This document shows, piece by piece, positions 3,994 to 48,317 of a DNA stretch of 64,000 nucleotides. The notes under the pieces were generated by a model. It had not been told where the DNA came from. It did no database searches and saw only the letters and a program-made list of their open reading frames with translations. How positions within the stretch are numbered: the first letter of the stretch is position 1; each line of letters opens with the position of its first letter. Where the stretch lies: positions 1,641 to 65,640 of the forward strand of contig JBEKJM010000003.1 of the NCBI GenBank assembly GCA_050011215.1, in the 5' to 3' direction. The stretch comes from Nitrososphaerales archaeon. GTDB taxonomy: Archaea > Thermoproteota > Nitrososphaeria > Nitrososphaerales > Gagatemarchaeaceae. The position numbers were made by a program, and so were the translations under genes.

Positions 3994-4324
3994 ACGGTTT
4001 CTGGCAGGACGCTTCCCTGGCCTCCTGCCACTCCGAGAGGAACCTTGCGATCACGCCGACGAAGGGGTTGCTCCTGTCGACGCGGAAGATGCGGATCCTG
4101 TTGAAGCGCTTCTCGGCGAGTATCCCCGACTCAGTCAGGAACTCCAAGTGGCGCGCGGCCGACGTGTGCGAGAGCCCGGACCTCCGCGTGATCTCTGAGA
4201 TGTTCAGCTCTCCGCTCTTGATCATCACAGTGAGCACCTTGGTCCTCCCGTAGGAGGACAGCAGCTCCTCAACCTGTGGACCACCCACGACTGAAGCACG
4301 TGGGCTTCTTGCTTCACTGGCCAA
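3986..4324 (-). CDS. ArsR-type winged-helix transcriptional regulator
   Basis: 112 aa. GRTKVLTVMIKSGELNISEITRRSGLSHTSAARHLEFLTESGIL is a canonical ArsR/SmtB HTH. TTG start 4324 overlaps the tnpB stop; an alternative GTG start lies at 4288. Confidence 0.7.
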   Translation of the reverse strand: MASEARSPRASVVGGPQVEELLSSYGRTKVLTVMIKSGELNISEITRRSGLSHTSAARHLEFLTESGILAEKRFNRIRIFRVDRSNPFVGVIARFLSEWQEAREASCQKPFN

Positions 4325-5555
4325 ACTTGCTTATCCTCTTCCTTCGCTGGACAAGTAGAGGCTCGGCCTCTACGTGGGCCAGTTCCTGGCCCGCCTTCAG
4401 GATATTCCTTGCCGCGTTCACATCCCTGTCCACGACAAGCCCGCACCGTGGGCAGTGGTGGACCCTCTCCGACAGCTCCTTCGGAACCACTTCCCCGCAT
4501 CCAGAGCATTTCTGCGACGTCCCCCTGGGTTCGACGAGGATCACTCGTCCGCCGTGCCTCTCCGCCTTGTAGGCGGTCAACTGACGCAGCTGCCCCCATG
4601 AGGCATCCGTTATTGCCGATGCCAGGCTGTGGTTCTTGACCATCGACGGAATGTGAAGGTCCTCAAAGACTATGGTGGAGTAGTGATTGGCGAGATGATG
4701 TGAGAGCCTGTGGGCGTAGTCATCCCTCTGCCTCCTCACCTTCCTCCATGCCTTTCCAAGTGCCACCTTCGTCTTCATCCGGTTGTTCGAGCCCCGTTTC
4801 TTTCCGGACAGGTTCCTCTGAAGCCGCTTGATCTGCTTGATCGAGCCGGGCAGGTATCTTGGATTCGGGAACTTCGTTCCGTCGCTGAGAGCAACGAGGT
4901 TTGTGATTCCAAGGTCAACTCCGATTGGTCTGTCTAAGACCTGGGCTTCTGTGGGTCTGGGGTTGTATTTCTCTGCCTCCACTGAGATGCAGGCGTACCA
5001 CTGGTCCACATCCCTGACGACCGTGCAGGTCTTTGATGCCTCCTCGATGGACCTGTGCACCTTCATCTTCACAGAGCCTATCTTCGAAAGTCTCAGTCTG
5101 TTTCCGATGATCTTGAACCCTCCAAGCTGTGGGTATCTGAACGAGTTGTACCTGTCCTTGCGCCTGAACCTTGGGCGCTTCGCGAGGCCCACGAAGAACG
5201 CCTGATATGCCTTGTCGAGTCTCAGCATGACATCCTGCAGGACCTGCGAGTGGATCGCCTCCAAGAATTTGTTGTCTCGCTTCAATTCCACGAGCATCCT
5301 CTTCTGCTCGTAGAATCCAGTCCTGTTCTCTATCCTGTCTGCGAGCATCGCGTTGTAGAGCCTCCTGCAGGTCTCGAGCGTCTCCTCCATGACACCGCTC
5401 TGGGTCTCGTTTGGGTAGAGCCTGAATCTGTATGTAATCAGCATCTCTGTTCTTCCGCATCCCTGCAGGATAAGAGGGCCACTCCTGGTTGGAGACACAG
5501 ATTCATCCCACCCGTGAATGGTGTGGGGTTTCTTTGTTTCCCCGAACCCCTTTCG
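4284..5555 (-). mobile_element. IS200/IS605-family element carrying tnpB only (IS1341-like); ends not determined
   Basis: tnpB lies between orc1/cdc6 and arsR/rfcL, with no TnpA in the window. Hairpin CCCACG-N9-CGTGGG (4284-4304) sits just 3' of tnpB. Boundaries are approximate. Confidence 0.5.
4314..5444 (-). CDS. tnpB: RNA-guided endonuclease TnpB (IS200/IS605-family OrfB)
   Basis: MLITYRFRLYPNETQ N-terminus. RuvC motifs GVDLGITN, IVFEDL and DRDVNAARNI, plus zinc finger CSGCG..HHCPRCG. ATG at 5444 is preferred over the track start 5498. Confidence 0.9.
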   Translation of the reverse strand: MLITYRFRLYPNETQSGVMEETLETCRRLYNAMLADRIENRTGFYEQKRMLVELKRDNKFLEAIHSQVLQDVMLRLDKAYQAFFVGLAKRPRFRRKDRYNSFRYPQLGGFKIIGNRLRLSKIGSVKMKVHRSIEEASKTCTVVRDVDQWYACISVEAEKYNPRPTEAQVLDRPIGVDLGITNLVALSDGTKFPNPRYLPGSIKQIKRLQRNLSGKKRGSNNRMKTKVALGKAWRKVRRQRDDYAHRLSHHLANHYSTIVFEDLHIPSMVKNHSLASAITDASWGQLRQLTAYKAERHGGRVILVEPRGTSQKCSGCGEVVPKELSERVHHCPRCGLVVDRDVNAARNILKAGQELAHVEAEPLLVQRRKRISKFGQ

Positions 5556-7787
5556 CTATCTAACGTCTGCGACCATCCCCTTCTCGAGCTCCCCCATCAG
5601 CTCCTTCGCCGACACGAGCGACAGCCCGATCAGGGTGGTCCTGCCCTTCATGCCCCTGCCCGAGAGCTGGGTCTCTATGATGCCCTTCCTGGACAGCTCG
5701 TTGACGTCGTTCCACACCTGTGTGTGGTGGTTCGCCGCCACCCCCATGCTCTCGCAGAGTACGCCGTAGCTTCTCTCGACCTCGCCTATGGTGACGTAGG
5801 TCGAGTCCCCCTTCTTGAGGAGGGCAGAGACCGCCATCAGTATCAGCCGCTGGTGCCTCGACAGGTAGCTCAGCTCCTCCTTGCTGAACCCCGGAGGCAG
5901 CGAAGCCTTGGCAGACCTGATGTGTTCGGGCAAGATCCGTGGTGACTCGGAGATGTCAGCGAGCTTCCCGGCCCTGTAGACCAGGTCGAGCGCATACCGA
6001 GCGTCGCCGTACAGACTCGCTATGTCTGCCGCCAGCTGCATCGAGTTGTCGCCCAGGGCGCCATCGGTGAACGCTTCGCTCCGAGAGACTATGATGTCCA
6101 AGAGCTGGGCAGCCGAGTAGGGTTCGAGCGAGACTTCGTTCCACTGCACCGAGCTGAGGGTGCTGAGGTCCACGGCCTTCATGTAATTGAGCGTCTTCGA
6201 AATGAGCAGGGAAGAAAAGACCTGGCTCCCCTGAACCGTCTCTCTCAGGCGCGTTATGGTGTAGAGCGCGGAGGGATCTGAGGTTATGAGGGAGTCAACC
6301 TCGTCGAACGCTATGACCAGGTGCATGTGGTTGCTCCTCAGTTCTTCGACGAGGACGGAGAGGAGCTCCTCGAAGCCGTATCCCCTCGACGGATAATTCT
6401 GACCGAGGGTGCTGAGCGCTCGGACCATTACTGACTGCAGCGTCTTGTCGATCCTGCAGTTGACGTGCAACATCTTCACCAGGTTCCCATACAGCGCCGC
6501 CTTCTTCTGCAGCGATTCGCCGAGCTTCTTGGCGAGCATCGTCTTGCCAGAATTGTGTGTTACCGTGAAATCATCTAAGAGGTATCGTTGATCAGAACCG
6601 ACTCTAAAACCGAAGTACTCTTCTTCCCCCAGAGGTTTTAGCGTGAAGCCCGTCCTTAAAACGCTCTTCTTCTGCCTTCTTGTCGGTGCCTGTTTTCTAC
6701 TAACCCTAGTAGGAATTTTGGAAATGTCGCCTGAAATTCCAACTCTGTAATACAGTCCCTCATGACCAAATTGGTCGTGGGAAGATTTTTCCCTGACAAA
6801 AGCGTAGAATCCAAGACTTCTAGACACAAATGCCACATCTTCAGCGAGCTGTTTCGACTTGGTGATAAAATCAAAGTATCCTGCATCTAGACTACCGTCT
6901 GTGTCCAGTAATCCAGCCAGAACTTCTAGACGTGTTCTTCTTGATCCAAACTTATACTGAGATGGGATGAACTTCGACTCAGATGTTTCCTTGTAAAGCC
7001 CTAACGCCATTAAATCCTTGGCTAGCCCATTTAGTAATGCTTGTCCACCTGTCCTCCCCGGAGTCAGCATATATTCTTGGGCTTGGCCTGCTGGGTACTG
7101 GCGTACTTTTAGCAAGTACTTTCCAGATTGGCTATTTACTATAGTTGATAGTTCTGCGTCCGCCGAAGTGATAGTGATATGGCCATTGGCACTACTTCCG
7201 TCCCCTAAATACACACCAAGAAAGTGAGGGTCTATCGACCCAGCTGGCATCTGAGGAAAATCGACGCCAGTTCTCATTAATTTGTAGAGACCCTTGGGAC
7301 CAACATACCATCTTGGAAGCTTTAACAGCTCGCTTACTCTAATGTCTTTGATTATCCCTTCAGTATCTTCAGACGGCTTTCGTGGGTGTTTCTTCAGTCG
7401 AGTTTGTATGACTGTCAGAACATGGTCCTCAGAAACCACAAATGGTTTTCCCTTTATCGGCTGGACTTCAATCATCCGTCCAAAACCATGTGCCGTCTCA
7501 AGCACTTTTCTTGGGGTACTGTCTGGACCCATCAACAAGTCTCCTTGAGTCACGTCTTCGACGCGTTTGAGAGATCCGTCAAACATCAAAACGAGTTGTC
7601 CTTTCCTATGGCACCCGACAGGCCCGGAGAGCATCACGTTCTGGCTCGCCTTCGAGGCGTTCTGCACGACGCTCTGGAAGTAGAGTTCGAGGGCCCTGAG
7701 CTGGTCGTCGCGGTGAGGGATTTGGTGCGGCAGGTATTCCGGGAAGAGGAATGACTCGTCCCTGAAGACGGAGCGCGGGGGCACCAA
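5556..7787 (-). CDS. cdc6: Orc1/Cdc6 replication initiator interrupted by an intein
   Basis: N-extein FPEYLPHQIPHRDDQLRAL...MLSGPVG joins C-extein SGKTMLAKK...VIAFDEVD with a C-terminal winged helix. Spliced product is 389 aa with the P-loop GPVGSGKT restored. Confidence 0.9.
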   Translation of the reverse strand: MVPPRSVFRDESFLFPEYLPHQIPHRDDQLRALELYFQSVVQNASKASQNVMLSGPVGCHRKGQLVLMFDGSLKRVEDVTQGDLLMGPDSTPRKVLETAHGFGRMIEVQPIKGKPFVVSEDHVLTVIQTRLKKHPRKPSEDTEGIIKDIRVSELLKLPRWYVGPKGLYKLMRTGVDFPQMPAGSIDPHFLGVYLGDGSSANGHITITSADAELSTIVNSQSGKYLLKVRQYPAGQAQEYMLTPGRTGGQALLNGLAKDLMALGLYKETSESKFIPSQYKFGSRRTRLEVLAGLLDTDGSLDAGYFDFITKSKQLAEDVAFVSRSLGFYAFVREKSSHDQFGHEGLYYRVGISGDISKIPTRVSRKQAPTRRQKKSVLRTGFTLKPLGEEEYFGFRVGSDQRYLLDDFTVTHNSGKTMLAKKLGESLQKKAALYGNLVKMLHVNCRIDKTLQSVMVRALSTLGQNYPSRGYGFEELLSVLVEELRSNHMHLVIAFDEVDSLITSDPSALYTITRLRETVQGSQVFSSLLISKTLNYMKAVDLSTLSSVQWNEVSLEPYSAAQLLDIIVSRSEAFTDGALGDNSMQLAADIASLYGDARYALDLVYRAGKLADISESPRILPEHIRSAKASLPPGFSKEELSYLSRHQRLILMAVSALLKKGDSTYVTIGEVERSYGVLCESMGVAANHHTQVWNDVNELSRKGIIETQLSGRGMKGRTTLIGLSLVSAKELMGELEKGMVADVR
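6552..7613 (-). other. intein (354 aa) with LAGLIDADG homing endonuclease, inserted in the Walker A motif of Orc1/Cdc6
   Basis: Starts with Cys59 (codon 7611-7613) and ends ..VTHN (Asn codon 6552-6554), followed by Ser+1. Two LAGLIDADG blocks (LGVYLGDGSS, LAGLLDTDGS). Clearly more AT-rich than the flanking exteins. Confidence 0.85.
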
Positions 7788-20333: not shown

Positions 20334-21362
20334 ATGAAGGCTGTAAGATTCCACAGGCATGGAGGCCCGGAGGTCCTCCAGTACGAGGACGCGCCCGAAC
20401 CGCTGCCGAGCAGCGACGAGGCGTTGGTGAGGGTCAGGGCCTGCGCCCTGAACCACCTGGACCTCTGGGCGAGAAACGGTCTTCCCAACGTCGAGATACC
20501 GCTCCCGCACATTTCTGGGAGCGACATAGCTGGTGTCGTGGAGTGGGTCCCGCCGGAGGAGAGGGAGTTCAAGAAAGGCGACGAGGTGATTGTAAACCCC
20601 GGAATCGGGTGCGGAAGATGCGACAGGTGCCTGACAGGGAAGGACAATCAGTGTAGGCGCTACACCATAATCGGGTACGGCGTCGACGGCGGCTACGCAG
20701 AGCTGGCCAAGGTTCCCAGAGCGAACCTGATCCCGAAGCCAGAAGGGATGAGCTTCGAGGAAGCGGCCTCCTTCCCGCTCGTCTTCCTAACGGCGTATCA
20801 CATGCTGGTGACCAAGGCGGGCGTCGGGGCAGGGGACACTGTCCTCGTTCTCGCATCGAGCTCCGGTGTCGGCTCCGCTGCGATTCAGCTGGCGAAGCTG
20901 TACGGCGCAGGAGTGATAGCGACGGGCGGAGATGCGGAGAAGCTGGAGCGAGCGAAGGAACTCGGAGCCGACTACGTGATCGACCACTACAGACAGGACG
21001 TCCTTGGCGAGGTCAGAAGAATCACCGGGAAGAGAGGCGTCGACATCGTCGTCGAGCACGTGGGCAAGGCCACCTGGGAGTCCAGCGTGAAGGCCCTTGC
21101 GAAGGGGGGCAGACTGGTCCTGTGCGGGGCAACGACCGGGGCCGAAGTGGCCACAGACCTCAGGTACGTCTACAACAGGGAGCTGACCATCTATGGAAGC
21201 TTCATGTCGAGCAAGGGTGAGCTGCTCAAGGTCGTGGACCTCTTCAGGACGAGAAGGCTGAAGACCGTCGTCGACTCCGTCTTCCTCTTGGAAAGGGCAG
21301 GCGAGGCGCAGCGAAGGATGGAAGAAAGCCGGCACTTCGGCAAGATAGTTCTGAAGGTCTAG
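20334..21362 (+). CDS. zinc-type alcohol dehydrogenase / quinone oxidoreductase (MDR superfamily)
   Basis: MKAVRFHRHGGPEVL..., a GCGRCDRC structural-zinc motif and an ASSSGVGSAAIQLAK Rossmann motif. Confidence 0.8.
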   Translation: MKAVRFHRHGGPEVLQYEDAPEPLPSSDEALVRVRACALNHLDLWARNGLPNVEIPLPHISGSDIAGVVEWVPPEEREFKKGDEVIVNPGIGCGRCDRCLTGKDNQCRRYTIIGYGVDGGYAELAKVPRANLIPKPEGMSFEEAASFPLVFLTAYHMLVTKAGVGAGDTVLVLASSSGVGSAAIQLAKLYGAGVIATGGDAEKLERAKELGADYVIDHYRQDVLGEVRRITGKRGVDIVVEHVGKATWESSVKALAKGGRLVLCGATTGAEVATDLRYVYNRELTIYGSFMSSKGELLKVVDLFRTRRLKTVVDSVFLLERAGEAQRRMEESRHFGKIVLKV

Positions 21363-21368
21363 GGCACG

Positions 21369-21381
21369 ATCTCGTAGGAGT
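21369..21381 (+). repeat. att core, left copy (followed by displaced original osmC 3' tail)
   Basis: ATCTCGTAGGAGT. On the minus strand, core plus left flank read ..TCC TAC GAG ATC GTG CCC TAG (..SYEIVP*), ending at 21359. Confidence 0.7.
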
Positions 21382-21423
21382 ATATCGGCTCAAGATAGAT
21401 AACAAAGGAGCGAAAAAACCTAT

Positions 21424-22068
21424 TCACGCATAGACGTCCGGGATCTTCTTCTCGATCACGCGCCAGAGCCCGGCGTCCCCTTTGTGGCAGTACCTTCGCG
21501 CCCAGTTCCGGTCCTTGACCTTGAACCATTCCAGGAGGTCGTTCTCCGTCAGCTCATAGTCTGCTCCCATCTGTGAAGCCCTCTGCGACCTGAACCAGTG
21601 AGCCCAGAGCTCCACGCCCGCCCTCTTCCCCTGCTCGACGACGATATTGTATGCCTGCTTCCTGGTGAAAGGAAAGAGCATAGAGTCGGGGCGCTTGAGT
21701 CCGGCCAGGTACTGCTCGACATAGGGCCAGACGGGCTCTCCCCGCGGGAAGCTGAAGGTCCTCGAGCGCTTCCCTAGCTTCTGCTTGACTATGGGGACGT
21801 CGACGCAGCGGACCCGCTTCGGGTCTGCCAGGTCGAAGGTCGACCGCCTGAGCTGGATTCCTTCGCTGACCCGGCAGCCCGTGAGGAAGAGCGCAGCCGG
21901 CAGAGCCTTGTTCCTGGGAGAACCGCCCGCCTCGCATATCTCCCGGAGCTTGGGCCAGCCTACGAACTCCTCAATCTCCTGGACGCTGTGTCTGTGGTAT
22001 TCGTGGCCGCTGGACCTAGCCCAATAGCCCAAAATCCTTGTCTCAGACATTGGAAAGCTCCCCATCAC
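21424..22068 (-). CDS. tyrosine recombinase, short catalytic-domain-only type
   Basis: 214 aa. LFLTGCRVSEGIQL (Arg I region), HWFRSQRASQM (H-x-x-R) and a C-terminal Tyr region. Adjacent to the left att copy. Confidence 0.75.
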   Translation of the reverse strand: MMGSFPMSETRILGYWARSSGHEYHRHSVQEIEEFVGWPKLREICEAGGSPRNKALPAALFLTGCRVSEGIQLRRSTFDLADPKRVRCVDVPIVKQKLGKRSRTFSFPRGEPVWPYVEQYLAGLKRPDSMLFPFTRKQAYNIVVEQGKRAGVELWAHWFRSQRASQMGADYELTENDLLEWFKVKDRNWARRYCHKGDAGLWRVIEKKIPDVYA

Positions 22069-22194
22069 CCCGCCATTCTGGACCTTTCATACTGAGAGGA
22101 GTAATCCACGGTCAAATCGAAACGCCCAAGTCCCTGGAAGGGGCGAAAAACGGCATAACCTATCTGCCTAACAATGAGGAAACCCACGACACCC

Positions 22195-23070
22195 TCAGGA
22201 AGCGACGTCCGACTCACCCGAGGTTTTTTGGTCGAGTTTGGCCCTTATGCCTCGCGCACGGTCCCGGCCTATGTCGAAAGAGCCCATGAGGGCACTAATG
22301 GAATAGACCCCACGCTGCTGGTACTTCTCAGGAGTCTTCAGGACTTCATCCATGATGTCACTGTTGCTTTTCATGGGCCTCTCGCCGGCCTTCAGGCGCT
22401 TCGAGTATGAGAGGTAAAGCTGGTCCTGGACCCGTTGCTTCTTCGCTTCGTAGGCTTTCAGAAGGGCCTCGCCGGGGAGCGTGAAGTGCTGGACGTCGAC
22501 GATGGTCTTGAACCAGGGCGTCGAGCCGAACTTGTCCGGGATCTGCTTGAAGACCTCGCCCTTGCCGTGGGCCGTGATGTTGATCAGGAAACTGACCAAG
22601 GTCTTCGCGTCCTTATCGAGAAGGCCCAAGCTCGGGATGCAAAGGAACGTCACGAACCGTTTGAACCGATATCCGATCATCGTCTTTGAGAGGATGATAT
22701 TCGCCTCAGACATGAACTGCCTGTGATGCCAGCTTTGGCCGGGTTCATCGTAGATCAGACATGAGAACTTTGGAAGGCTCGTCACGGCGTCCATGTATTC
22801 AGACGCCGCAAAGACGACCTGGTGCTCGACGGCCTTCTCGGGATCGTCGATGAACGTGGAATCGATAAGCTCCGCGAGCCGGAGGGCCGCGTAGCTCTTC
22901 CCAAGTCCGGCCTCACCCTCAATGATGATCCTCGAGTCCATGTTGAGCTTGTTCCGGCGCTCGATTTCTCTGAGAAGAATCCCCTTGTAGCCTTGGGAGT
23001 GTTCTCGCAGCTGCCTTTCAAGGACTCTGGTGTGCTCTTCGCGGAATGTATCGATTATGAAGTCGCTCAT
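22195..23070 (-). CDS. P-loop NTPase of mobile-element origin
   Basis: Walker A GEAGLGKS and Walker B CLIYDEPG. No closer assignment possible by eye. Confidence 0.55.
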   Translation of the reverse strand: MSDFIIDTFREEHTRVLERQLREHSQGYKGILLREIERRNKLNMDSRIIIEGEAGLGKSYAALRLAELIDSTFIDDPEKAVEHQVVFAASEYMDAVTSLPKFSCLIYDEPGQSWHHRQFMSEANIILSKTMIGYRFKRFVTFLCIPSLGLLDKDAKTLVSFLINITAHGKGEVFKQIPDKFGSTPWFKTIVDVQHFTLPGEALLKAYEAKKQRVQDQLYLSYSKRLKAGERPMKSNSDIMDEVLKTPEKYQQRGVYSISALMGSFDIGRDRARGIRAKLDQKTSGESDVAS

Positions 23071-23212
23071 ATCTGGTCTGCCTCCGAGCTGCTTCCGCTA
23101 GTGCTAAAGTGGGAAACACCCTGGACACCGTGGACAGGGCGGACACGGAAGGTGGTATAGTCCAGCGTGTCCAGTGTGTCCACGGTTCCCCCCACTTTAG
23201 GCCCAGAGAACG

Positions 23213-24682
23213 TCAACCTTCAGCCTCCTTCAAGCCCTCTTCCTCTTCCTCCTCCGGTAAGGCCTTCCCCCACTCTTCGCTAGGCCGGAGCCCCAGGCCC
23301 AGGAAGTACCTCACGCGCTTCCCCTTCGGCCCTTCCCTCGACTCCTCGAGATGGCGTCCCGGAAAGTAGAGAGGCAGATTCTTGAAGAACGTGTCCGAAG
23401 TCACGACTGGCAGCTTCCGGAGCTTGCAGTAGTGGACAAACGCCTCGAAGAGAGCCTGCTTCGCAACCGAGGCGCTTGACTCCTGCTTTGTGCAATCGAG
23501 AAGGAATGCCTTCATGGGCGAGCTGCGGCGGATATAGTCGAGCCTCACGTCCTCGGTCGACTTCGAATTAGAGAAGGTCCAGCCGTTGTCTCTGAGTCTC
23601 TTCAGGCCCTCCAGAGCCCAATTCAGCACGCCCGAGAGCTCGTCCGGCGTGGTGAGCTTCTTCAGGAGGCCTTTGTCTGCGAGAGCTCCTTCGAAGGCGT
23701 GTGGGAATTGGATGATGATCCAGCGCCGAAAGAAGGCGGTGGTATCCTCATGGACCTCAGGAACCACGTTGCACGAGAAGGTGAGCTTCGCGAAGTTAAC
23801 AAAGGGAAAAGAATTGTGGAATTTCTTTTCCCCCCTGATCGGGTCGCCCCCGGTGAGCATCTTGAAAGTCCCGACGCTCTGCAAAGCGGAGTCCGGCAAG
23901 TCGGCGTAGATATTCGCGAGTTTGCCGAAGAGGTCGACCTTCGCGAACCTGTTTGTTTCGAGCTCCTGAAGCGAGACGGCGCTGATGTTGTCGACGCCCA
24001 GGAACGACTTCAGGACGGAAAGAAGGGTACTCTTTCCGTTGTTTCCGTCGCCGACGAAGAGGATCGCGACCTGGGCGGGATATCCTCGGTGTAGGCAGTA
24101 CCCGAACCACTCTTGAAGGACCGCGATATCCTCTGAGTACAGAACTTGAGACAGGAACGCCTTGAAGAGCTGACAGTCCTTAGAAGGGTCGAAAATGACC
24201 GGCAGCTTGCTCATGCTGTAAAAATCGGCCCTATGGGGTGCGGTTTGGTTTGTCTCCGTGTCTAGAAGGCCGTTCTCCACGACGAGGACCGGCCCCTCTG
24301 TGTTGAACTCTCCCCTGCTAATGAAAGTCGACCTTTGGACATGGCCCTCCACCTCGTTAACCAGATGGGCGGTGACGTCTCGCGTATTCGAGACGAATTT
24401 CTGGACCCGGCGCTTGATCAGGGCCTCGCCCCCCTCGACGTAGACGCCTTCCTTGTAGACGTAGACCTCTTCGGAACCGTTGAGGGTCGCGAAGTGGTCA
24501 GCTTCCATCAGCTTTTTTGCGATCCGCCAGGCATCAGTCCCGATCTCCCTTGCCTCTAAGTCCTCGAGCGTCGTGCCTTTCGAAGCGAGCTCCTTGACCG
24601 CCTCCGCGTGGAGTTTGTTCTCGGGGATTGTCCCTTCGGCAAGATATCTACGGTAGTCAGCCATCAGGTCGGCGGACCTCAT
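23213..24682 (-). CDS. D5/P4-family primase-associated SF3 helicase
   Basis: VAILFVGDGNNGKSTLL (Walker A), LANIYADLP, GGDPIRGEKKF..F and FFRRWIIIQFP are typical of the phage/plasmid primase P4-family C-terminal domain. Confidence 0.85.
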   Translation of the reverse strand: MRSADLMADYRRYLAEGTIPENKLHAEAVKELASKGTTLEDLEAREIGTDAWRIAKKLMEADHFATLNGSEEVYVYKEGVYVEGGEALIKRRVQKFVSNTRDVTAHLVNEVEGHVQRSTFISRGEFNTEGPVLVVENGLLDTETNQTAPHRADFYSMSKLPVIFDPSKDCQLFKAFLSQVLYSEDIAVLQEWFGYCLHRGYPAQVAILFVGDGNNGKSTLLSVLKSFLGVDNISAVSLQELETNRFAKVDLFGKLANIYADLPDSALQSVGTFKMLTGGDPIRGEKKFHNSFPFVNFAKLTFSCNVVPEVHEDTTAFFRRWIIIQFPHAFEGALADKGLLKKLTTPDELSGVLNWALEGLKRLRDNGWTFSNSKSTEDVRLDYIRRSSPMKAFLLDCTKQESSASVAKQALFEAFVHYCKLRKLPVVTSDTFFKNLPLYFPGRHLEESREGPKGKRVRYFLGLGLRPSEEWGKALPEEEEEEGLKEAEG

Positions 24683-24954
24683 GGGGTCAGCCCCGCCTTG
24701 AAAGCCAAGACCGCGTTAGTTTGTGTGGGCCTGGCAGAGCCCGAAGGCGTCAGCTCGAAGGGGACTAGCAGGAAACAAAAGTAAGCGTAGTCAAACCGCC
24801 CCTTCGCGCCCTCATGATCGGAGGGCTTGATTCCGGTCGTGACCTTTACGCCGGGGAGGGACTCGCTGAAGAATCGAATCAGCGCCGCTATCTCCTCCGG
24901 CGTGTTGCCCTGAATCTTGACGGAGCAGGTCCGATTATTTCTCTCTGGGCTCAT
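24679..24954 (-). CDS. hypothetical protein (element-borne)
   Basis: 91-aa ORF whose stop overlaps the helicase ATG (ATGA), suggesting translational coupling. No recognisable motif. Confidence 0.45.
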   Translation of the reverse strand: MSPERNNRTCSVKIQGNTPEEIAALIRFFSESLPGVKVTTGIKPSDHEGAKGRFDYAYFCFLLVPFELTPSGSARPTQTNAVLAFKAGLTP

Positions 24955-25062
24955 GGTTTTGATTCAGCTTACCCGGTTCCCGAAGGTCAGCTAGAATAGA
25001 ATCAACGATTGTATGCGCCCGTTCCAAGCGTGAGAGAATCGGGTCCTTGGAAGGTGCTTCGC

Positions 25063-25206
25063 TCATACCCTGGAGCTCCCTTTCTGCTCGACAGCCTTCT
25101 CTAGAGCTCGCGCAACGAATTTGCTCCGTGGAACGTCCCCCCGAAGCTGCTCGACCTTCTTGAGCAGGTCCTTATTGAGGGAAATCGCCACCGTCACGCT
25201 AGACAT
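25063..25206 (-). CDS. ribbon-helix-helix (CopG/Arc-type) DNA-binding protein
   Basis: 47 aa. MSSVTVAISLNKDLLKKVEQLRGDVPRSKFVARALEKAV follows the RHH pattern. ATG 25206 lies 27 nt from the shared TATA box. Confidence 0.6.
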   Translation of the reverse strand: MSSVTVAISLNKDLLKKVEQLRGDVPRSKFVARALEKAVEQKGSSRV

Positions 25207-25229
25207 TGGGTCTAATGGAATTATCAACC

Positions 25230-25257
25230 TTAATAAGTGGTCAGTCGCGACTGACCA
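25230..25257. promoter_or_regulatory. bidirectional TATA box plus perfect 20-bp palindromic operator
   Basis: TTAATAAG (25230-25237) lies midway between divergent starts 25206 (-) and 25263 (+). TGGTCAGTCGCGACTGACCA (25238-25257) is a perfect palindrome. Confidence 0.6.
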
Positions 25258-25262
25258 GTCAG

Positions 25263-26057
25263 ATGTCACTGGACAACATCCAAGAAGGAATTGTGTCTTT
25301 GCTCGAAAAGAATCCCCAAGGGCTAGGACAAAATCAAATGTGGAGGGAACTTTCCTGTGCTAAGGGGACATTCCTCGACCGATTAAACAAACTGGAGAAA
25401 GCGGGAATGGTGACATATACCGAAGGTTCCAGGAAGTCAAAGATCTATCAGCTCAACGATGAAATCCTGAAAGGGAATCGCGCAACGTGGGCCTTCAACA
25501 TTCTGATGCTGCATGACGCGATAAATCTGCTGAGCGAAGAGGCCGCTTCAAGACATTCAAACCGCCTCAAATTGGCTCGCGCAACGTTCCTCGTTCAGAA
25601 CGAGGTTTCGAAGTACATCTTTCGGCTCATGTACTTGAAGAATATCGAGGGATTGCTCATGAACTGGGACCGCGAACAGATGCTTTCAGGCGTGGTGGTG
25701 GACAGCCTGTTCGACGCCTATGCAGCGTTCCAAAGGAAGATCGGGGCAACTCATGGGGAGGTCGATTCTGCGATCATCGAGGTGGACCTGAGCAGATCGG
25801 CCGCAGCAATCCTTTGGACTAAGCTAAGAATGGACCGGTCACGGAAAGACGTAGACGAGTGGTTGAAAGAGCTTCCCAGACAGCTTCCAAGGCTTTGGAA
25901 GCGCACAGAGACAACAGTGAATTTGGCAGCTCGTTCTACGGCGTCCTTGTGGGAGAAGGCACGAAAGAGAAGTGACGAGTATCAAGAGCTCCTCCAAAAA
26001 CCAGAGGCAGAGCTCCGGGACACCTTCAAGCGAGAAATCGAAGTGTCTTTCAAGTAG
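25263..26057 (+). CDS. winged-helix protein (element-borne, putative regulator/replication protein)
   Basis: The N-terminus GIVSLLEKNPQGLGQNQMWRELSCAKGTFLDRLNKLEKAGMVTY is wHTH-like. ATG 25263 is chosen from TATA spacing; the rest is unassigned. Confidence 0.5.
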   Translation: MSLDNIQEGIVSLLEKNPQGLGQNQMWRELSCAKGTFLDRLNKLEKAGMVTYTEGSRKSKIYQLNDEILKGNRATWAFNILMLHDAINLLSEEAASRHSNRLKLARATFLVQNEVSKYIFRLMYLKNIEGLLMNWDREQMLSGVVVDSLFDAYAAFQRKIGATHGEVDSAIIEVDLSRSAAAILWTKLRMDRSRKDVDEWLKELPRQLPRLWKRTETTVNLAARSTASLWEKARKRSDEYQELLQKPEAELRDTFKREIEVSFK

Positions 26058-26088
26058 CCCGTGGATTTCGACTTCTACCCCATGGATA

Positions 26089-27246
26089 TCATGGGGTCAC
26101 GCTGACTTTCTTCCCCTTCAGCTCCTTCCGCCTCTCCTCCATGCTCTCCTCGATCATTTGCTGAAGCTCGTTGAACCTTGCTTCCCAGTTCGCCTTCTCG
26201 GAGTCAAACCGTTTCTGGGCCTCCTTCAGTTCGGCTGATGGCTTGTAGAGCCTTAGAGAGTCGTATGCGTTTCGGTAGGCATCCCTTAGCTGCGCGTCCG
26301 AAGGCTTGGAGTACGCTGACGCGGACGCTCCCCTGGGGATATGCCCGAGAAGCATATCGACCCAATTCAGGGGGACGCCGGACCCCTCGAGAATCGTCTG
26401 CGCCCTCTGCCTCAGAACGTGGGGATGGAACGTCTTAAGACCCGTCCGCGTGGTGATGAGCCCGGCGTCGTATGCCACGTTCCCAATCCGTCCGATTATA
26501 GTCGTGTGAGAGAGCGCCCTTCCGGTGCGGCTCTCGAAGAGATAGGAGTCGTCGTTCAACGGCCTGCCCTCAATCGTCCGGACCTTCCCGTGAATATCCT
26601 TCCCTTGCCTGTCCGTCGAGCGCCATGTCAGATAGTCCTTGAGCGCAGCCGCCGCGTCCGCCCCGATGAAACCCACGTATGCCCTCCCTCCCTTCGTTAT
26701 CGAGGCGGGGAAGCTCACCCGGCAGGGAAGGACCCCGGCCTCAAAGTCCGGCTTGATGTGCTTGTATCTGAGCTTCAGGACGGAGCCGATCCGCGCCCCC
26801 GAGTCTGTCAGGAATAGGACCAGGGCCTTTAGCTGCCGGGTCCCCGCAGCCTCCGCCAAGTCCCTTAGCTTTGCGTCGCTCGGCAGGCCGACCGGCTCCC
26901 TTTGAGGCGGAGGCCGGACTAGCTTCAGGTCTAAGTGGAGGTGGTTCGCAGCAAAGAAGGACTTGACGTATGCCCCGTAAGTGTGCGCCCCCTTCACGTT
27001 CTTGACGAAACCCCTTACCGTGTCCTCCGTCTTGAAACGGGCCTTCGCGCTCTTCTCTGTGAGCTCTGCCTCCTTAGCCGCGATCAATTCCTCCGGGTCC
27101 TTCCCCGTGTACTTCGAATATCTCAGGATCGAATAGAGGGCTGCCCCCCTAGTCCGTTCGGAAGCGCTCAGGCTGTTAAGCCAATTCTCGACTGATGGAA
27201 GGACCTCGAGCCGCGCGTATTCCGCCTTCAGATAACACTCAGGCAT
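26089..27246 (-). CDS. tyrosine recombinase / integrase (full length)
   Basis: 385 aa. LFLTDSGARIGSVLKL (Arg I), HPHVLRQRAQT (H-x-x-R) and LLGH..ASASAYS (His/Tyr). Adjacent to the right att copy. Confidence 0.85.
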   Translation of the reverse strand: MPECYLKAEYARLEVLPSVENWLNSLSASERTRGAALYSILRYSKYTGKDPEELIAAKEAELTEKSAKARFKTEDTVRGFVKNVKGAHTYGAYVKSFFAANHLHLDLKLVRPPPQREPVGLPSDAKLRDLAEAAGTRQLKALVLFLTDSGARIGSVLKLRYKHIKPDFEAGVLPCRVSFPASITKGGRAYVGFIGADAAAALKDYLTWRSTDRQGKDIHGKVRTIEGRPLNDDSYLFESRTGRALSHTTIIGRIGNVAYDAGLITTRTGLKTFHPHVLRQRAQTILEGSGVPLNWVDMLLGHIPRGASASAYSKPSDAQLRDAYRNAYDSLRLYKPSAELKEAQKRFDSEKANWEARFNELQQMIEESMEERRKELKGKKVSVTP

Positions 27247-27287
27247 GGGTCCTGAGCATGGGGGCGGGGCGTCTTAAGGGTTGTGAG

Positions 27288-27716
27288 TTATCTATTTGCA
27301 ATAATCTCGTAGGAGTGGGTTATCTTAGCGGTGGGAGACAGGGACGCGCCCACGCTGCAAAACTTCTCCGTGCTTTCCTTGATTGCTTCCTCGACGAAGC
27401 GCTTGTCGAGCTTCTTCCCCGACAGCACGTACTTGACGTGAATCGAAACCCATGGCCTTGGGAGGCCGTACTCCGGGCGTTCGCCTGACAACAGAATCCT
27501 AAGAGACGTCAGCGCCTGTTTTCTCTTCTTCAGGATTGCGACGATGTCCATCCCCGTACACGCCCCGAGAGCCGTCAGGACAGCCCTCATCGGCCCTATT
27601 CCCTTCATCACCCCGTCGTTGGAGTCATAGACGACCGTGTGGCCTGAGGTGTCGGAACCGAGGAAAACGTTCTCCCCCGACCAGGAGACCTCGGCCAGCC
27701 AGTTCTCCTTACTCAA
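27288..27716 (-). CDS. osmC: OsmC/Ohr-family peroxiredoxin-like protein
   Basis: GPMRAVLTALGACTGMDIV and EKFCSVGASL carry the two conserved Cys of OsmC. Its last 5 codons are supplied by the integrated element. Confidence 0.85.
   Translation of the reverse strand: MSKENWLAEVSWSGENVFLGSDTSGHTVVYDSNDGVMKGIGPMRAVLTALGACTGMDIVAILKKRKQALTSLRILLSGERPEYGLPRPWVSIHVKYVLSGKKLDKRFVEEAIKESTEKFCSVGASLSPTAKITHSYEIIANR
27304..27316 (+). repeat. att core, right copy (inside current osmC 3' end)
   Basis: ATCTCGTAGGAGT covers the osmC codons ..S Y E I.. The tail 27288-27303 (..IANR*) lies on the element side. Confidence 0.7.
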
Positions 27717-48207: not shown

Positions 48208-48242
48208 CATTTCGAGCTTATTCTTGGTGCGGCCTCCGGGAT
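48208..48242 (-). repeat. direct repeat B (3' end of intact tRNA-Gly plus trailer)
   Basis: CATTTCGAGCTTATTCTTGGTGCGGCCTCCGGGAT, in the same orientation as repeat A, 2,942 bp away. Confidence 0.75.
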
Positions 48243-48317
48243 TCGGACCCGGGCGAACGGCTGTCTCCTCTCCGCGATTGGGAAGCCGCTATCCTAACCA
48301 GGCTGGATCAAGGCCGC
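48225..48317 (-). tRNA. tRNA-Gly (anticodon CCC) with 16-nt intron and encoded CCA
   Basis: Acceptor GCGGCCU/AGGCCGC, D arm AUCC-AGCCUGGUUA-GGAU, anticodon stem GCGGC/GCCGU with UUCCCA + 16-nt insert at 37/38, T arm CCGGG-UCCGAAU-CCCGG, and ACCA. TATA CGTTTATAGT lies ~29 nt upstream. Confidence 0.8.

What the first reader, a model, noticed from the sequence alone, without database searches (positions are those of the whole stretch)
21369..27316. 5.9-kb integrated element that replaced the 3' end of osmC; 13-bp att duplication preserves the ancestral gene tail
A perfect direct repeat ATCTCGTAGGAGT occurs at 21369-21381 and 27304-27316. The right copy lies inside osmC (codons S-Y-E-I). The present gene then finishes with element-side sequence (..EIIANR*, stop 27288). 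Read on the minus strand, the left copy continues ..TAC GAG ATC GTG CCC TAG. This is an alternative in-frame tail ..SYEIVP*, ending exactly at the stop of the convergent MDR dehydrogenase gene (shared CTAG, 21359-21362). This is the classical signature of site-specific integration into a gene 3' end, with the element supplying a substitute tail. Between the repeats lie two tyrosine recombinases (one at each end), a D5/P4-type SF3 helicase, a P-loop ATPase, an RHH protein and a wHTH protein. No capsid-like genes are present, so it looks like a cryptic integrated plasmid rather than a provirus. The chance of a 13-mer match between two ~100-bp junction windows is roughly 1e-4.
Basis: partly seen in the sequence, partly recalled or inferred. 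Interest (0 to 1): 0.65.

Follow-up and report, generated by a model that had tools for sequence, protein, structure and literature searches.

The report
Integrated plasmid-virus hybrid in archaeal osmC
A 5.9-kb mobile DNA element has inserted into the last codons of the osmC gene of a peat-soil ammonia-oxidiser-type archaeon (Nitrososphaerales) and supplies the gene with a new ending; public metagenomes hold both occupied and empty versions of the site, which confirms it as a well-documented example of a known kind of element.

Summary
ATCTCGTAGGAGT occurs only at 21369-21381 and 27304-27316. The present osmC ends SYEIIANR*, and the left copy preserves SYEIVP*, the commonest tail among 120 homologues. 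Contigs in two public peat metagenomes join 21367 directly to 27303, skipping exactly 5,935 bp (the empty site). Eight other runs and 13 independent contigs carry the occupied site.

The host is a Nitrososphaerales archaeon. The 385-aa tyrosine integrase next to osmC is the likely integrase. Its relatives (46-70% identity) also sit directly downstream of a host gene. In the two closest loci (57% and 70%) the arm sequences on both sides of the crossover are conserved, and the int-side arm supplies an in-phase short tail and a TAA stop.

The cargo is a mosaic:
- A plasmid-like module: RHH, a 91-aa ORF, a D5-type SF3 helicase without a primase domain, and a wHTH protein.
- A "DnaA-like" AAA+ ATPase plus a 214-aa catalytic-domain-only tyrosine recombinase. 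This pair is shared with 15-22 kb spindle-virus-like contigs.

No capsid gene is present. This is a new member of the thaumarchaeal "cryptic integrated elements" (Krupovic 2019). A pSSVx/pSSVi-like satellite role is possible but unproven.

The parts
20334..21362 (+). Left host flank: MDR-type zinc alcohol dehydrogenase gene, convergent on osmC in the empty site
   Evidence: Pfam ADH_N and ADH_zinc_N. 98% identical protein in the syntenic locus L001.
21359..21379 (-). Displaced ancestral osmC tail, TCC TAC GAG ATC GTG CCC TAG = SYEIVP*
   Evidence: Sequence. SYEIVP is the commonest tail among 120 homologues and 140 aa the usual length. The empty-site contigs restore this tail.
21369..21381 (.). 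Left att core copy, ATCTCGTAGGAGT (junction on the MDR side)
21382..21403 (-). Element arm far from int ('P arm'). On the minus strand it reads GTTATCTATCTTGAGCCGATAT and abuts the core. It holds one copy of the GTTATCT motif (21397-21403).
   Evidence: CTATCTTGAGCCGATAT is conserved next to the core in the window, L001, L005 and L007 (alignment A5). Motif counts.
21424..22068 (-). Small tyrosine recombinase, 214 aa (208 aa by another gene call), catalytic domain only
   Evidence: Pfam Phage_integrase 7.5e-05, below cut-off; phrog_216 integrase. R66, K95, H157, R160 and Y193 are invariant in 30 family members. The family profile hits XerA structure 4a8e at 2e-16. 61.5% identical to the gene downstream of the ATPase in virus-like contig L069.
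22195..23070 (-). P-loop AAA+ ATPase of the spindle-shaped-virus 'DnaA-like' (SSV1 B251) type, 291 aa
   Evidence: Walker A GEAGLGKS and Walker B IYDEPG. phrog_5484 at 4.6e-07. hhalign 98.3% probability, E 2.2e-14, against the Haloferax lemon-shaped virus LSV-48N protein; 81.8%, E 1.1e-05, against SSV1 B251. AlphaFold2 pLDDT 84. Homologues of 49-62% identity lie in virus-like contigs.
23104..23200 (.). 97-bp imperfect palindrome with GGACA repeats on each arm (three on the left; two exact plus one GTCCAG variant on the right) and 10-bp perfect outer arms. Candidate replication origin or operator (inferred).
   Evidence: DNA fold z-score -3.45, with 0 of 200 shuffles folding as well. Not shared with the virus-like contigs.
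23213..24682 (-). D5_N + DUF5906 superfamily-3 helicase (P4-family primase C-terminal region) without a primase domain, 489 aa
   Evidence: Pfam; TIGR01613 at 5.2e-57; phrog_864. Aligns only to residues ~325-750 of the 854-888-aa primpol-helicases of L081 and L086. Nothing above 35% identity in JGI metagenomes apart from itself.
24679..24954 (-). 91-aa ORF of unknown function; its stop overlaps the helicase start by 4 nt
   Evidence: No family hits. Called as a gene in independent assemblies.
25063..25206 (-). Probable ribbon-helix-helix (CopG-like) protein, 47 aa from the internal ATG
   Evidence: Sub-threshold Pfam hits to CcdA (0.015) and RHH_1 (0.035). The 47-aa gene call appears in independent assemblies.
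25239..25256 (.). Perfect 18-bp palindrome GGTCAGTCGCGACTGACC between the divergent RHH and wHTH genes. Candidate operator (inferred).
   Evidence: Sequence.
25263..26057 (+). Protein with an N-terminal winged HTH and an unknown helical C-terminal region. The start is uncertain: the ORF opens at 25206 and another gene call gives 239 aa.
   Evidence: Pfam HTH_24 at 3.3e-04, just below cut-off. The single-sequence AlphaFold2 model was unusable, pLDDT 38.7.
26089..27246 (-). 385-aa tyrosine integrase, the probable integrase for the osmC site
   Evidence: Pfam Phage_integrase 7.5e-14. R152, K185, R279, H302 and Y312 are invariant and H276 is at least 90% conserved. Relatives of 70%, 57% and 46% identity all sit directly downstream of, and codirectional with, a host gene. 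Junction arms are conserved in the 70% and 57% loci.
27287..27303 (-). Element arm next to int ('P′ arm'), TATTGCAAATAGATAAC on the minus strand. It encodes the substitute tail (I)ANR and the TAA stop (27288-27290).
   Evidence: TATTGyA...AG(A/C)TAAC, with the TAA in the same phase, is found in the window, L005 and L007 (translations).
27304..27316 (.). Right att core copy, inside osmC codons (H)SYEI
27288..27716 (-). Target gene osmC in its present form (142 aa, hybrid tail)
   Evidence: Pfam OsmC 1.7e-11. Homologues are named Nitrososphaerales OsmC family proteins.

Best explanation
The stretch 21369-27303 (5,935 bp: the element plus one core copy) is a site-specific integrated mobile element in the chromosome of an uncultivated peat/wetland Nitrososphaerales (Thaumarchaeota) archaeon.

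Shown:
- A circular precursor can be inferred whose attP reads ...GTTATCTATTTGCAATA-ATCTCGTAGGAGT-ATATCGGCTCAAGATAGATAAC... It recombined with the identical 13-bp core in the last codons of osmC.
- The element-side arm next to the integrase gene supplies four codons and a TAA, so osmC stays complete (SYEI-VP* becomes SYEI-IANR*).
- The old tail is left 5.9 kb away, against the MDR dehydrogenase gene.
- The site is polymorphic in nature, occupied or precisely empty, among strains with nearly identical flanks.

Inferred:
- The 385-aa tyrosine integrase beside osmC catalyses the reaction. Its clade specialises in the 3' ends of protein genes. Three elements with related integrases, hitting two different targets (osmC and a DUF35-family gene), carry conserved arms on both sides of the crossover.
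- The rest is a mosaic. An RHH / orf91 / SF3-helicase operon, with a divergent wHTH gene and palindromic or iteron-like sites, would maintain the element as a plasmid.
- A spindle-virus-type 'DnaA-like' AAA+ ATPase plus a minimal 214-aa tyrosine recombinase were acquired as a pair from 15-22 kb spindle-virus-like elements. The small recombinase is not needed for osmC integration. Its role (multimer resolution, a second specificity, or interaction with a helper virus) is unknown.
For: - Repeat and tails.
- Homologue tails and lengths.
- Empty-site joint 21367->27303, skipping 5,935 bp, in runs X20 and X22; only 2 differences in ~1.5 kb of flank.
- Occupied site contiguous in X1-X3, and both junctions spanned in X5 and X8 (one junction spanned in X4, X6 and X7).
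- Same element in 13 contigs (six examined, from six JGI samples).
- Synteny osmC-(insert)-MDR-pur genes in MAG GCA_050011715.1.
- Integrase catalytic residues.
- Relatives beside host gene ends, with direct repeats and substitute tails.
- Conserved arms.
- GTTATCT motif, 4 of 6 window copies within 90 bp of the cores; empirical P ~0.005.
- Replication module.
- ATPase affinity to spindle-virus ATPases.
- ATPase followed by the small recombinase in L069, L171, L172 and L067.
- The same kind of element (13-bp att, substitute stop, 3'-distal target) is published for Thaumarchaeota: PMC6563490.
Against: - No excised circle junction was found: it is not in IMG/VR and no 'goes back' joint appears in the contigs of 12 runs. 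Raw reads were not available, so present-day mobility is inferred only from the presence/absence polymorphism.
- The empty allele has T (ATT) where the occupied strain's MDR-side copy has C (ATC), directly beside the core. The empty contigs are therefore not simply the excision product of this exact allele, unless the exchanged region includes that base.
- No recombinase activity was tested. The small recombinase also lies next to att and keeps its catalytic residues.
- The RHH and wHTH assignments are sub-threshold.
- The helicase has no primase partner.
- Depth of the element is about equal to that of the flanks, so there is no sign of an episomal surplus.
Confidence: 0.9

Rival explanations
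1. Integrative satellite. The element is a plasmid-virus hybrid that is packaged and spread by a helper spindle-shaped virus of Nitrososphaerales. It would use the virus-type AAA+ ATPase as pSSVx does, and would be integrative like pSSVi. This extends the best explanation rather than contradicting it.
For: - Size 5.9 kb, a plasmid-type replication module, a B251-type ATPase and no capsid protein. This is the combination that defines pSSVx and the haloarchaeal SRCEs (PMC1635272; bioRxiv 10.1101/2025.02.15.638363).
- Candidate helper-type genomes exist. L067, L068, L069 and L171 share the 135-137-aa ORF + ATPase tandem, 2-TM hairpin capsid-like proteins and ~860-aa proteins; L068 is a 15,017-bp circle.
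Against: - No evidence of encapsidation.
- No helper with a near-identical ATPase was found in the same samples; the best is 66% identity.
- The hosts of the virus-like contigs are unknown, and they are absent from IMG/VR.
- The 135-aa partner ORF of the ATPase is missing from the element.
- The ATPase could simply serve replication.
Confidence: 0.3
2. Decayed provirus. The element is what remains of a spindle-virus-like provirus after loss of its structural genes, and is no longer mobile.
For: The ATPase + small recombinase pair is typical of the virus-like contigs. A clearly decayed insert sits at the same site in L001.
Against: - All seven ORFs are intact and identical across many samples.
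- The helicase, RHH, wHTH and large integrase have no counterpart in the virus-like contigs, so this is not a deletion derivative.
- The precise presence/absence polymorphism between nearly identical strains argues for recent mobility.
Confidence: 0.07
3. The small 214-aa recombinase, not the 385-aa integrase, performed the osmC integration. Alternatively, both are needed.
For: It lies 42 bp from the left core copy and keeps R-K-H-R-Y. In the virus-like contigs it is the only recombinase seen.
Against: Elements L005 and L007 have the same conserved arms and the same integration style, with only the large integrase and no small one. The large integrase's position relative to the target gene is conserved in 4 of 4 loci.
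Confidence: 0.1
4. A chance repeat, a transposon target-site duplication, or a chimeric assembly joined at a compositional boundary.
For: GC drops from ~0.64 to ~0.56 exactly at the left junction. The repeat is only 13 bp.
Against: - The empty-site contig crosses the same boundary.
- Synteny holds in an independent MAG.
- The same join appears in 13 independently assembled contigs.
- No transposase, Cas1 or terminal inverted repeats are present.
- The repeat lies in conserved coding sequence, next to arms that are conserved between elements.
Confidence: 0.01

Closest known systems
Thaumarchaeal cryptic integrated elements, e.g. NitEve-E2 of Nitrososphaera evergladensis (Krupovic et al. 2019, PMC6563490)
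   Same: - Tyrosine-integrase-mediated insertion into the 3'-distal part of a protein-coding gene.
- A very short att site (13 bp in NitEve-E2; median 17 bp).
- An element-supplied stop codon.
- Validation by comparison with an empty site.
- Small size, with RHH, wHTH and SF3-helicase genes and no virion or conjugation genes.
   Different: - osmC does not occur in the main text of that paper.
- This element carries two tyrosine recombinases and a spindle-virus-type ATPase.
- Its helicase lacks the primpol domain that is fused in NitKor_MY1-E1 and NitAQ6f-E4.
- The host is an uncultivated peat lineage.
pSSVx and pSSVi of Saccharolobus/Sulfolobus (satellites of fuselloviruses SSV1/SSV2)
   Same: - About 5.7 kb.
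- A plasmid replication module combined with a homologue of the fusellovirus B251 'DnaA-like' ATPase.
- No capsid gene (PMC1635272; bioRxiv 10.1101/2025.02.15.638363).
- pSSVi is also integrative (from memory).
   Different: - A different phylum and a mesophilic habitat.
- The integrase here is not of the self-splitting SSV type.
- The A153-like partner ORF is absent.
- Helper-dependent packaging is entirely untested here.
- The ATPase relationship to B251 is remote (hhalign 82%).
SRCEs / PL6-family plasmids of haloarchaea and nanohaloarchaea (bioRxiv 10.1101/2025.02.15.638363)
   Same: Small elements (2.7-9 kb) combining plasmid Rep or primase-helicase genes with the spindle-virus AAA+ ATPase and/or capsid protein. 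They are proposed to be satellites.
   Different: Those were recovered as circular elements with high copy depth. This one is seen only integrated and at chromosomal depth, and it carries integrases.
Elements L005 and L007
   Same: - The same integrase clade.
- The same conserved arms on both sides of the core.
- The same phase of the substitute tail and TAA.
- The integrase gene lies directly downstream of the target gene.
   Different: The target is the zf-ChsH2/DUF35-family gene rather than osmC. The cargo differs (2.4 and 3.9 kb; no helicase, ATPase or small recombinase).
pRN1-family plasmids of Sulfolobales (from memory: CopG-like ORF56 upstream of the primase-helicase ORF904, plus a wHTH-like PlrA)
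   Same: Gene logic of a small RHH regulator followed by an SF3-helicase replication protein, plus a separate DNA-binding protein.
   Different: No primase domain is detectable here and no sequence similarity was tested. This is a resemblance of organisation only.

Membership tests
Site-specific integrated element of the tyrosine-recombinase type (thaumarchaeal cryptic integrated element, sensu Krupovic 2019) | Direct repeats (attL/attR) flank the element | tested here: met
   Perfect 13-mer at 21369-21381 and 27304-27316, unique in the window.
Site-specific integrated element of the tyrosine-recombinase type (thaumarchaeal cryptic integrated element, sensu Krupovic 2019) | A closely related genome has the empty site with a single att copy | tested here: met
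   Joint 21367->27303 skipping 5,935 bp in contigs of runs X20 and X22.
Site-specific integrated element of the tyrosine-recombinase type (thaumarchaeal cryptic integrated element, sensu Krupovic 2019) | Encodes a tyrosine recombinase with the catalytic R-K-H-R-H/W-Y set | tested here: met
   Large integrase: R152, K185, H276, R279, H302, Y312. Small recombinase: R66, K95, H157, R160, Y193.
Site-specific integrated element of the tyrosine-recombinase type (thaumarchaeal cryptic integrated element, sensu Krupovic 2019) | 'Cryptic': no virion, conjugation or transposition genes | tested here: met
   No such hits in Pfam, PHROGs or NCBIfam. No hydrophobic-hairpin ORF. No homologues of the virus-like contigs' structural proteins.
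Site-specific integrated element of the tyrosine-recombinase type (thaumarchaeal cryptic integrated element, sensu Krupovic 2019) | Excision to a circle and re-integration (activity) | not testable with these tools
   Only assembled contigs were available. No circle junction in them or in IMG/VR.
SSV-type ('suicidal') integrase elements | attP lies inside the integrase ORF, so integration splits the int gene into two parts | tested here: not met
   Both recombinase ORFs are intact. The core lies 42 bp beyond the stop of one and 57 bp upstream of the start of the other.
Plasmid-virus hybrid satellites of spindle-shaped viruses (pSSVx / pSSVi / SRCE) | Plasmid-type replication module | tested here: met
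   D5_N/DUF5906 SF3 helicase preceded by a probable RHH. No primase domain.
Plasmid-virus hybrid satellites of spindle-shaped viruses (pSSVx / pSSVi / SRCE) | Homologue of the spindle-virus AAA+ (B251 / 'DnaA-like') ATPase and/or capsid protein, without a full morphogenetic module | tested here: met
   hhalign 98.3% to the LSV-48N ATPase and 81.8% to SSV1 B251; phrog_5484. No capsid-like ORF.
Plasmid-virus hybrid satellites of spindle-shaped viruses (pSSVx / pSSVi / SRCE) | Packaged into helper-virus particles; spread depends on the helper | not testable with these tools
   Needs virus-fraction sequencing or culture. No RNA or virome runs were found.
Plasmid-virus hybrid satellites of spindle-shaped viruses (pSSVx / pSSVi / SRCE) | A helper virus with cognate genes infects the same host | tested here: inconclusive
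   Related virus-like genomes exist (ATPase 49-62% identical, up to 66% in short contigs). Their hosts and co-occurrence are unknown.
Transposon or casposon with target-site duplication | Transposase or Cas1 and terminal inverted repeats; the repeat is created by staggered cuts | tested here: not met
   No transposase or Cas1 hits. The only end-associated inverted repeat is the 9-bp GTTATCTAT/ATAGATAAC set back from the core (sequence; motif positions). The arms are homologous to those of other integrase-bearing elements.

The most novel reading that the evidence does not exclude
The element is an integrative satellite, a plasmid-virus hybrid in the manner of pSSVi/pSSVx. Its helper would be an undescribed group of ~15-22 kb circular, spindle-virus-like viruses, presumably of soil/peat Nitrososphaerales although their hosts are not established. 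These are represented by contigs L067-L069 and L171, which carry 2-TM capsid-like proteins, the ATPase and (in most) the minimal recombinase. It would be the first virus satellite proposed for Thaumarchaeota. A further untested possibility: the integrase gene sits 41 bp downstream of the stress gene osmC and is codirectional with it, as it is with the target gene in every relative examined. Read-through from the host promoter could therefore couple integrase expression, and so excision, to host stress.
Probability: 0.3. Interest if true: 0.65.

Novelty: new member of a known kind. Interest (0 to 1): 0.45.

Why it matters
The case is clean and fully bounded: both junctions, the empty site and the conserved attP arms are all in hand. 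It shows an archaeal integrase clade that targets the last codons of protein genes and repairs them with a built-in, in-phase tail and stop codon.

It adds osmC to the known thaumarchaeal targets and shows that the site is a recurrent insertion point. It gives concrete DNA substrates (core CTACrAGwT with arms CTATCTTGAGCCGATAT and TATTGyA..AGATAAC) for biochemical work on short-att archaeal integrases.

The mosaic cargo links small integrative plasmids of soil and peat Nitrososphaerales to a group of spindle-virus-like genomes that were not found in IMG/VR and had no PHROG matches. If the satellite reading holds, virus-satellite systems would extend to a globally important nitrifier-related lineage.

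Tried and rejected
- An exact search for the reconstructed attP junction in IMG/VR found nothing.
- No RNA runs hold the element, so expression could not be assessed.
- No run kept as raw reads was offered, so rare excision products could not be sought. Contigs of 12 runs show no circle joint.
- Helicase relatives are all 35% identical or less in the JGI metagenome contigs and 31% or less in IMG/VR, apart from the element itself. No related element could be traced through the helicase.
- A scan of IMG/VR with the ATPase alignment found no relatives.
- A sequence search of the PDB with the ATPase found nothing. Fold searches gave only weak, generic P-loop matches (Zot 2r2a, RFC, ATV ORF286; TM <= 0.55).
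- The small recombinase has no tblastn match in the phage collection. Its profile is not significantly similar to the 206-aa integrase of LSV-48N (hhalign 2.5%).
- Alignment A2 was too diverse for a locus scan. A narrower alignment worked.
- The single-sequence AlphaFold2 model of the wHTH protein was unusable, pLDDT 38.7.
- The GGACA iteron palindrome is not shared with the virus-like contigs.
- The L070 osmC tail (SYEIRSSQS) diverges exactly after the core, but the contig is too short to show a second copy. It is not counted as an insertion.
- Considered and rejected: an SSV-type split integrase, a transposon target-site duplication, and a chimeric assembly at the GC step (see the rival explanations).

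Full report
**1. The observation**

ATCTCGTAGGAGT occurs at 21369-21381 and 27304-27316 and nowhere else in the 64-kb window, even when one mismatch is allowed. None of 100 shuffles gave two matches.

The right copy lies inside a 142-aa OsmC-family gene (27288-27716, minus strand; Pfam OsmC) that ends ...KITHSYEIIANR*, with its stop at 27288-27290. Read on the minus strand, the left copy continues TCC TAC GAG ATC GTG CCC TAG = SYEIVP*. Its stop shares CTAG (21359-21362) with the stop of the convergent zinc-dehydrogenase gene 20334-21362.

**2. Is the tail ancestral, and is there an empty site?**

A search with the OsmC protein returned hundreds of close homologues from Nitrososphaerales/Thaumarchaeota MAGs and from peat, soil and sediment metagenomes.
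- Of the 120 best, most are 140 aa long. That is exactly the length the gene would have with the VP tail.
- The commonest last six residues are SYEIVP (33 of 120). Conservation stops after SYEI.
- IIANR occurs only in the two clusters that are 99% identical to the window's gene.

Public runs holding the stretch are all peat or wetland metagenomes. In runs X1-X3, single contigs run through both junctions; both junctions are also spanned in X5 and X8, and one junction each in X4, X6 and X7.

In runs X20 and X22, a 45.7-kb contig (depth 56) and a 2.5-kb contig (depth 154) join 21367 directly to 27303. They skip 5,935 bp, which is exactly the spacing of the repeats, and differ at only two other positions in about 1.5 kb of flank.

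One detail remains open. The base next to the core is T (ATT Ile codon) in the empty allele, but C (ATC) in the occupied strain's displaced tail. This is either a synonymous strain difference or a sign that the exchanged region covers 14 bases.

Thirteen contigs carry the IIANR-tailed osmC. The six examined, from six JGI samples, all have the same element next to it, so the structure is not an assembly accident.

The window shows a GC step from ~0.64 to ~0.56 exactly at the left junction, which raised the possibility of a chimera. That is excluded for two reasons. The empty-site contig crosses the same boundary. An independent MAG (GCA_050011715.1, locus L001) has the same order, osmC - insert - dehydrogenase - purM/purC.

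**3. Which recombinase, and how?**

Both recombinase ORFs are intact, and the core lies between genes. The element is therefore not of the SSV type, in which integration splits the integrase gene.

The 385-aa protein (26089-27246) has a clear Phage_integrase domain. R152, K185, R279, H302 and Y312 are invariant across its relatives, and H276 is at least 90% conserved.

Its relatives at 70%, 57% and 46% identity each sit directly downstream of a host gene and in the same orientation:

| Locus | Integrase identity | Upstream host gene |
|---|---|---|
| L005 | 70% | zf-ChsH2/DUF35-family gene |
| L007 | 57% | zf-ChsH2/DUF35-family gene |
| L009 | 46% | elongation factor 2 gene |

In L007, a 12-bp direct repeat bounds a 3.9-kb element, and the host protein's tail changes from GYKFIVMAIYNL* to GYKFIVIS*. 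L005 has the analogous copies 2.4 kb apart.

Alignment of the junctions gives three results.
- On the integrase side, the sequence abutting the crossover is conserved: TATTGCAAATAGATAAC in the window, TATTGTAGAGAGATAAC in L005 and TATTGTAATTAGCTAAC in L007. In all three it is read in the same phase, to give a four-codon tail ending in the TAA of this motif (translations).
- On the far side, CTATCTTGAGCCGATAT abuts the core in the window, L005, L007 and L001.
- The host-side cores themselves resemble each other (CTACGAGAT, ATACAAGTT, CTACAAGTT). The clade therefore appears to recognise a related short sequence in different genes.

L005 and L007 carry no small recombinase. I therefore assign the osmC integration to the 385-aa integrase. 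This is an inference, at about 0.8 confidence.

The heptamer GTTATCT occurs six times in the window, and four of those lie within 90 bp of the two cores. One of the four is on the host side, where it encodes the conserved K-I-T of OsmC. A 7-mer reaching four copies in two such segments happened in 0.5% of random segment pairs. These may be integrase-binding sites, but they overlap a plausible TATA-like box and the substitute stop, so their role is open.

L001 keeps the far arm and a core copy next to the dehydrogenase gene. On the osmC side it has lost the integrase arm, and it carries only a 410-aa secreted NHL-repeat protein in 1.6 kb. It is a decayed relative at the same site.

A low-depth contig in X22 matches the first ~29 bp of the integrase-side arm at lower identity (13 differences over 162 bp) and then diverges. 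The osmC end is thus a recurrent insertion point in this lineage.

**4. The cargo**

The plasmid-like part, reading along the minus strand:
- A probable 47-aa ribbon-helix-helix protein. The hits to CcdA and RHH_1 are sub-threshold.
- A 91-aa ORF without relatives.
- A 489-aa D5_N/DUF5906 superfamily-3 helicase (TIGR01613 5e-57).

The helicase aligns only with the C-terminal part of the 854-888-aa primpol-helicases of other archaeal elements, so it has no primase domain. Nothing above 35% identity exists in the JGI metagenome contigs searched, apart from the element itself.

A wHTH protein is transcribed divergently from the RHH gene. A perfect 18-bp palindrome (25239-25256) lies between them. 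Between the helicase and the ATPase lies a 97-bp imperfect palindrome with GGACA repeats on each arm (three on the left; two exact plus one variant on the right). It folds far better than shuffles do (z = -3.45). I take this to be a candidate origin or operator.

The virus-related part is the 291-aa P-loop protein and the 214-aa recombinase.
- The ATPase has no Pfam family, but it matches PHROG 5484, 'DnaA-like replication initiation protein'.
- Its only hit among 50,697 phage and archaeal-virus records is the lemon-shaped Haloferax virus LSV-48N.
- The family profile matches that LSV-48N protein with 98.3% probability (E 2e-14) and SSV1 B251 with 81.8% (E 1e-5).
- Its closest homologues (49-62% identity) lie in contigs of 15-22 kb packed with small unannotated ORFs.

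Four of these contigs (L067-L069 and L171) share a common gene set: a 135-137-aa ORF in tandem with the ATPase (same gene order in L171), proteins of ~860, ~300 and ~280 aa with signal or membrane segments, and several 60-95-aa proteins made of two hydrophobic helices. That is the architecture of spindle-shaped-virus capsid proteins. L172 has the ATPase and the small recombinase but a different gene layout.

L068 is a complete 15,017-bp circle: it has a 30-bp terminal overlap and a gene that wraps across the ends. In L069, L171, L172 and L067 the ATPase is followed by a homologue of the small recombinase, which is 61.5% identical in L069. None of the structural genes is in the window, and no hydrophobic-hairpin ORF exists in the element.

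The small recombinase belongs to a family of ~200-250-aa proteins that have a catalytic domain only. R, K, H-x-x-R and Y are invariant, and the family profile hits archaeal XerA (4a8e) at 2e-16. Members occur in Bathyarchaeia and Nitrososphaerales MAGs. In two loci (L081, L086) a member sits beside a primpol-helicase and a separate full-length integrase. The two-recombinase layout is therefore recurrent.

**5. Comparison with what is known**

Krupovic et al. (2019, PMC6563490) reported the following:
- 14 of 68 thaumarchaeal integrated elements sit in the 3'-distal region of protein genes.
- att sites are short (median 17 bp). A 13-bp example has an element-supplied stop, validated against an empty site.
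- Most elements are small 'cryptic integrated elements' with integrase, RHH/wHTH and assorted replication genes.

The present element meets every testable defining feature of that class. osmC does not occur in the main text of that paper. The finding is therefore a new, unusually well-bounded member of a known kind, not a new kind.

The combination of a plasmid replication module with the spindle-virus ATPase, and no capsid gene, is what defines pSSVx. It also defines the recently proposed haloarchaeal SRCE satellites (PMC1635272; bioRxiv 10.1101/2025.02.15.638363). A satellite role is thus a legitimate hypothesis, but encapsidation, a cognate helper and the host link are all untested. I put it at about 0.3.

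**6. Verdict**

- The roles of the two recombinases are assigned.
- The attP arms are defined.
- The cargo is recognised as a plasmid/spindle-virus mosaic.

Interest is moderate. The mechanism is textbook and already documented in this phylum. The conserved 'gene-repairing' arm, the recurrent use of the osmC end and the link to spindle-virus-like genomes that were not found in IMG/VR are useful additions.

Noticed in passing
L067, L068, L069, L171, L172 (not in the window): Contigs of 15-22 kb whose ATPase is 49-62% identical to the element's. Four of them (L067-L069, L171) share an ATPase tandem, 2-TM hairpin capsid-like proteins and ~860-aa proteins. L068 closes into a 15,017-bp circle. PHROGs, tried on ten large proteins of L067 and L069, gave no significant match, and no relatives of the ATPase were found in IMG/VR. 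They look like a group of spindle-shaped-virus-like genomes not found in those libraries; the host is unproven.
   Followed up: partly
L001:10400-12020 (MAG GCA_050011715.1): The same osmC-dehydrogenase site holds a 1.6-kb insert. It has degenerate core copies (ACTCCTACGAAAT and GCTCCTACGAGAT), the conserved far arm, no integrase, and a 410-aa secreted NHL-repeat beta-propeller gene. This is a decayed relative of the element.
   Followed up: partly
window 21000-21400: An abrupt and lasting GC step: ~0.64 over 8-21 kb (the purine-biosynthesis gene cluster) against ~0.55-0.59 from 21 kb to 64 kb. It coincides with the left junction but is native, because it is also present in the empty-site contig and in L001. 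The cause is unknown.
   Followed up: partly
window 5556-7787 (-): A 743-aa Orc1/Cdc6 homologue interrupted by an intein (Hint + LAGLIDADG domains). It lies in a low-GC stretch (~0.52), so the chromosomal replication origin may be nearby.
   Followed up: no
window 4314-5498 (-): An IS200/IS605-family TnpB (OrfB_IS605 + Cas12f1-like TNB domain) next to the Orc1/Cdc6 gene.
   Followed up: no
window 48225-48317 (-): A 93-nt tRNA-like gene with an unassignable anticodon in ARAGORN, probably an intron-containing archaeal tRNA.
   Followed up: no
L081:9944-16167 and L086:2375-8743 (Bathyarchaeia MAGs): Elements with the same three-part layout as the window's: a small catalytic-domain-only tyrosine recombinase, a primpol-SF3 helicase and a separate full-length integrase. 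In L081 this lies next to a tRNA-His gene. The two-recombinase design recurs across archaeal phyla.
   Followed up: partly
L169 (Haloferax lemon-shaped virus LSV-48N, PP151251.1): This isolated virus also has a 'DnaA-like' ATPase followed, one gene later, by a 206-aa integrase, plus a second 344-aa integrase. The layout parallels the window's element, although the small integrases are not detectably similar in sequence.
   Followed up: partly
window 27246-27290, and L005, L007, L009 near position 10000: In all four loci the integrase gene starts 1-57 bp downstream of the target gene's new stop and runs in the same direction. Read-through from the host promoter could drive integrase expression in the integrated state.
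   Followed up: no
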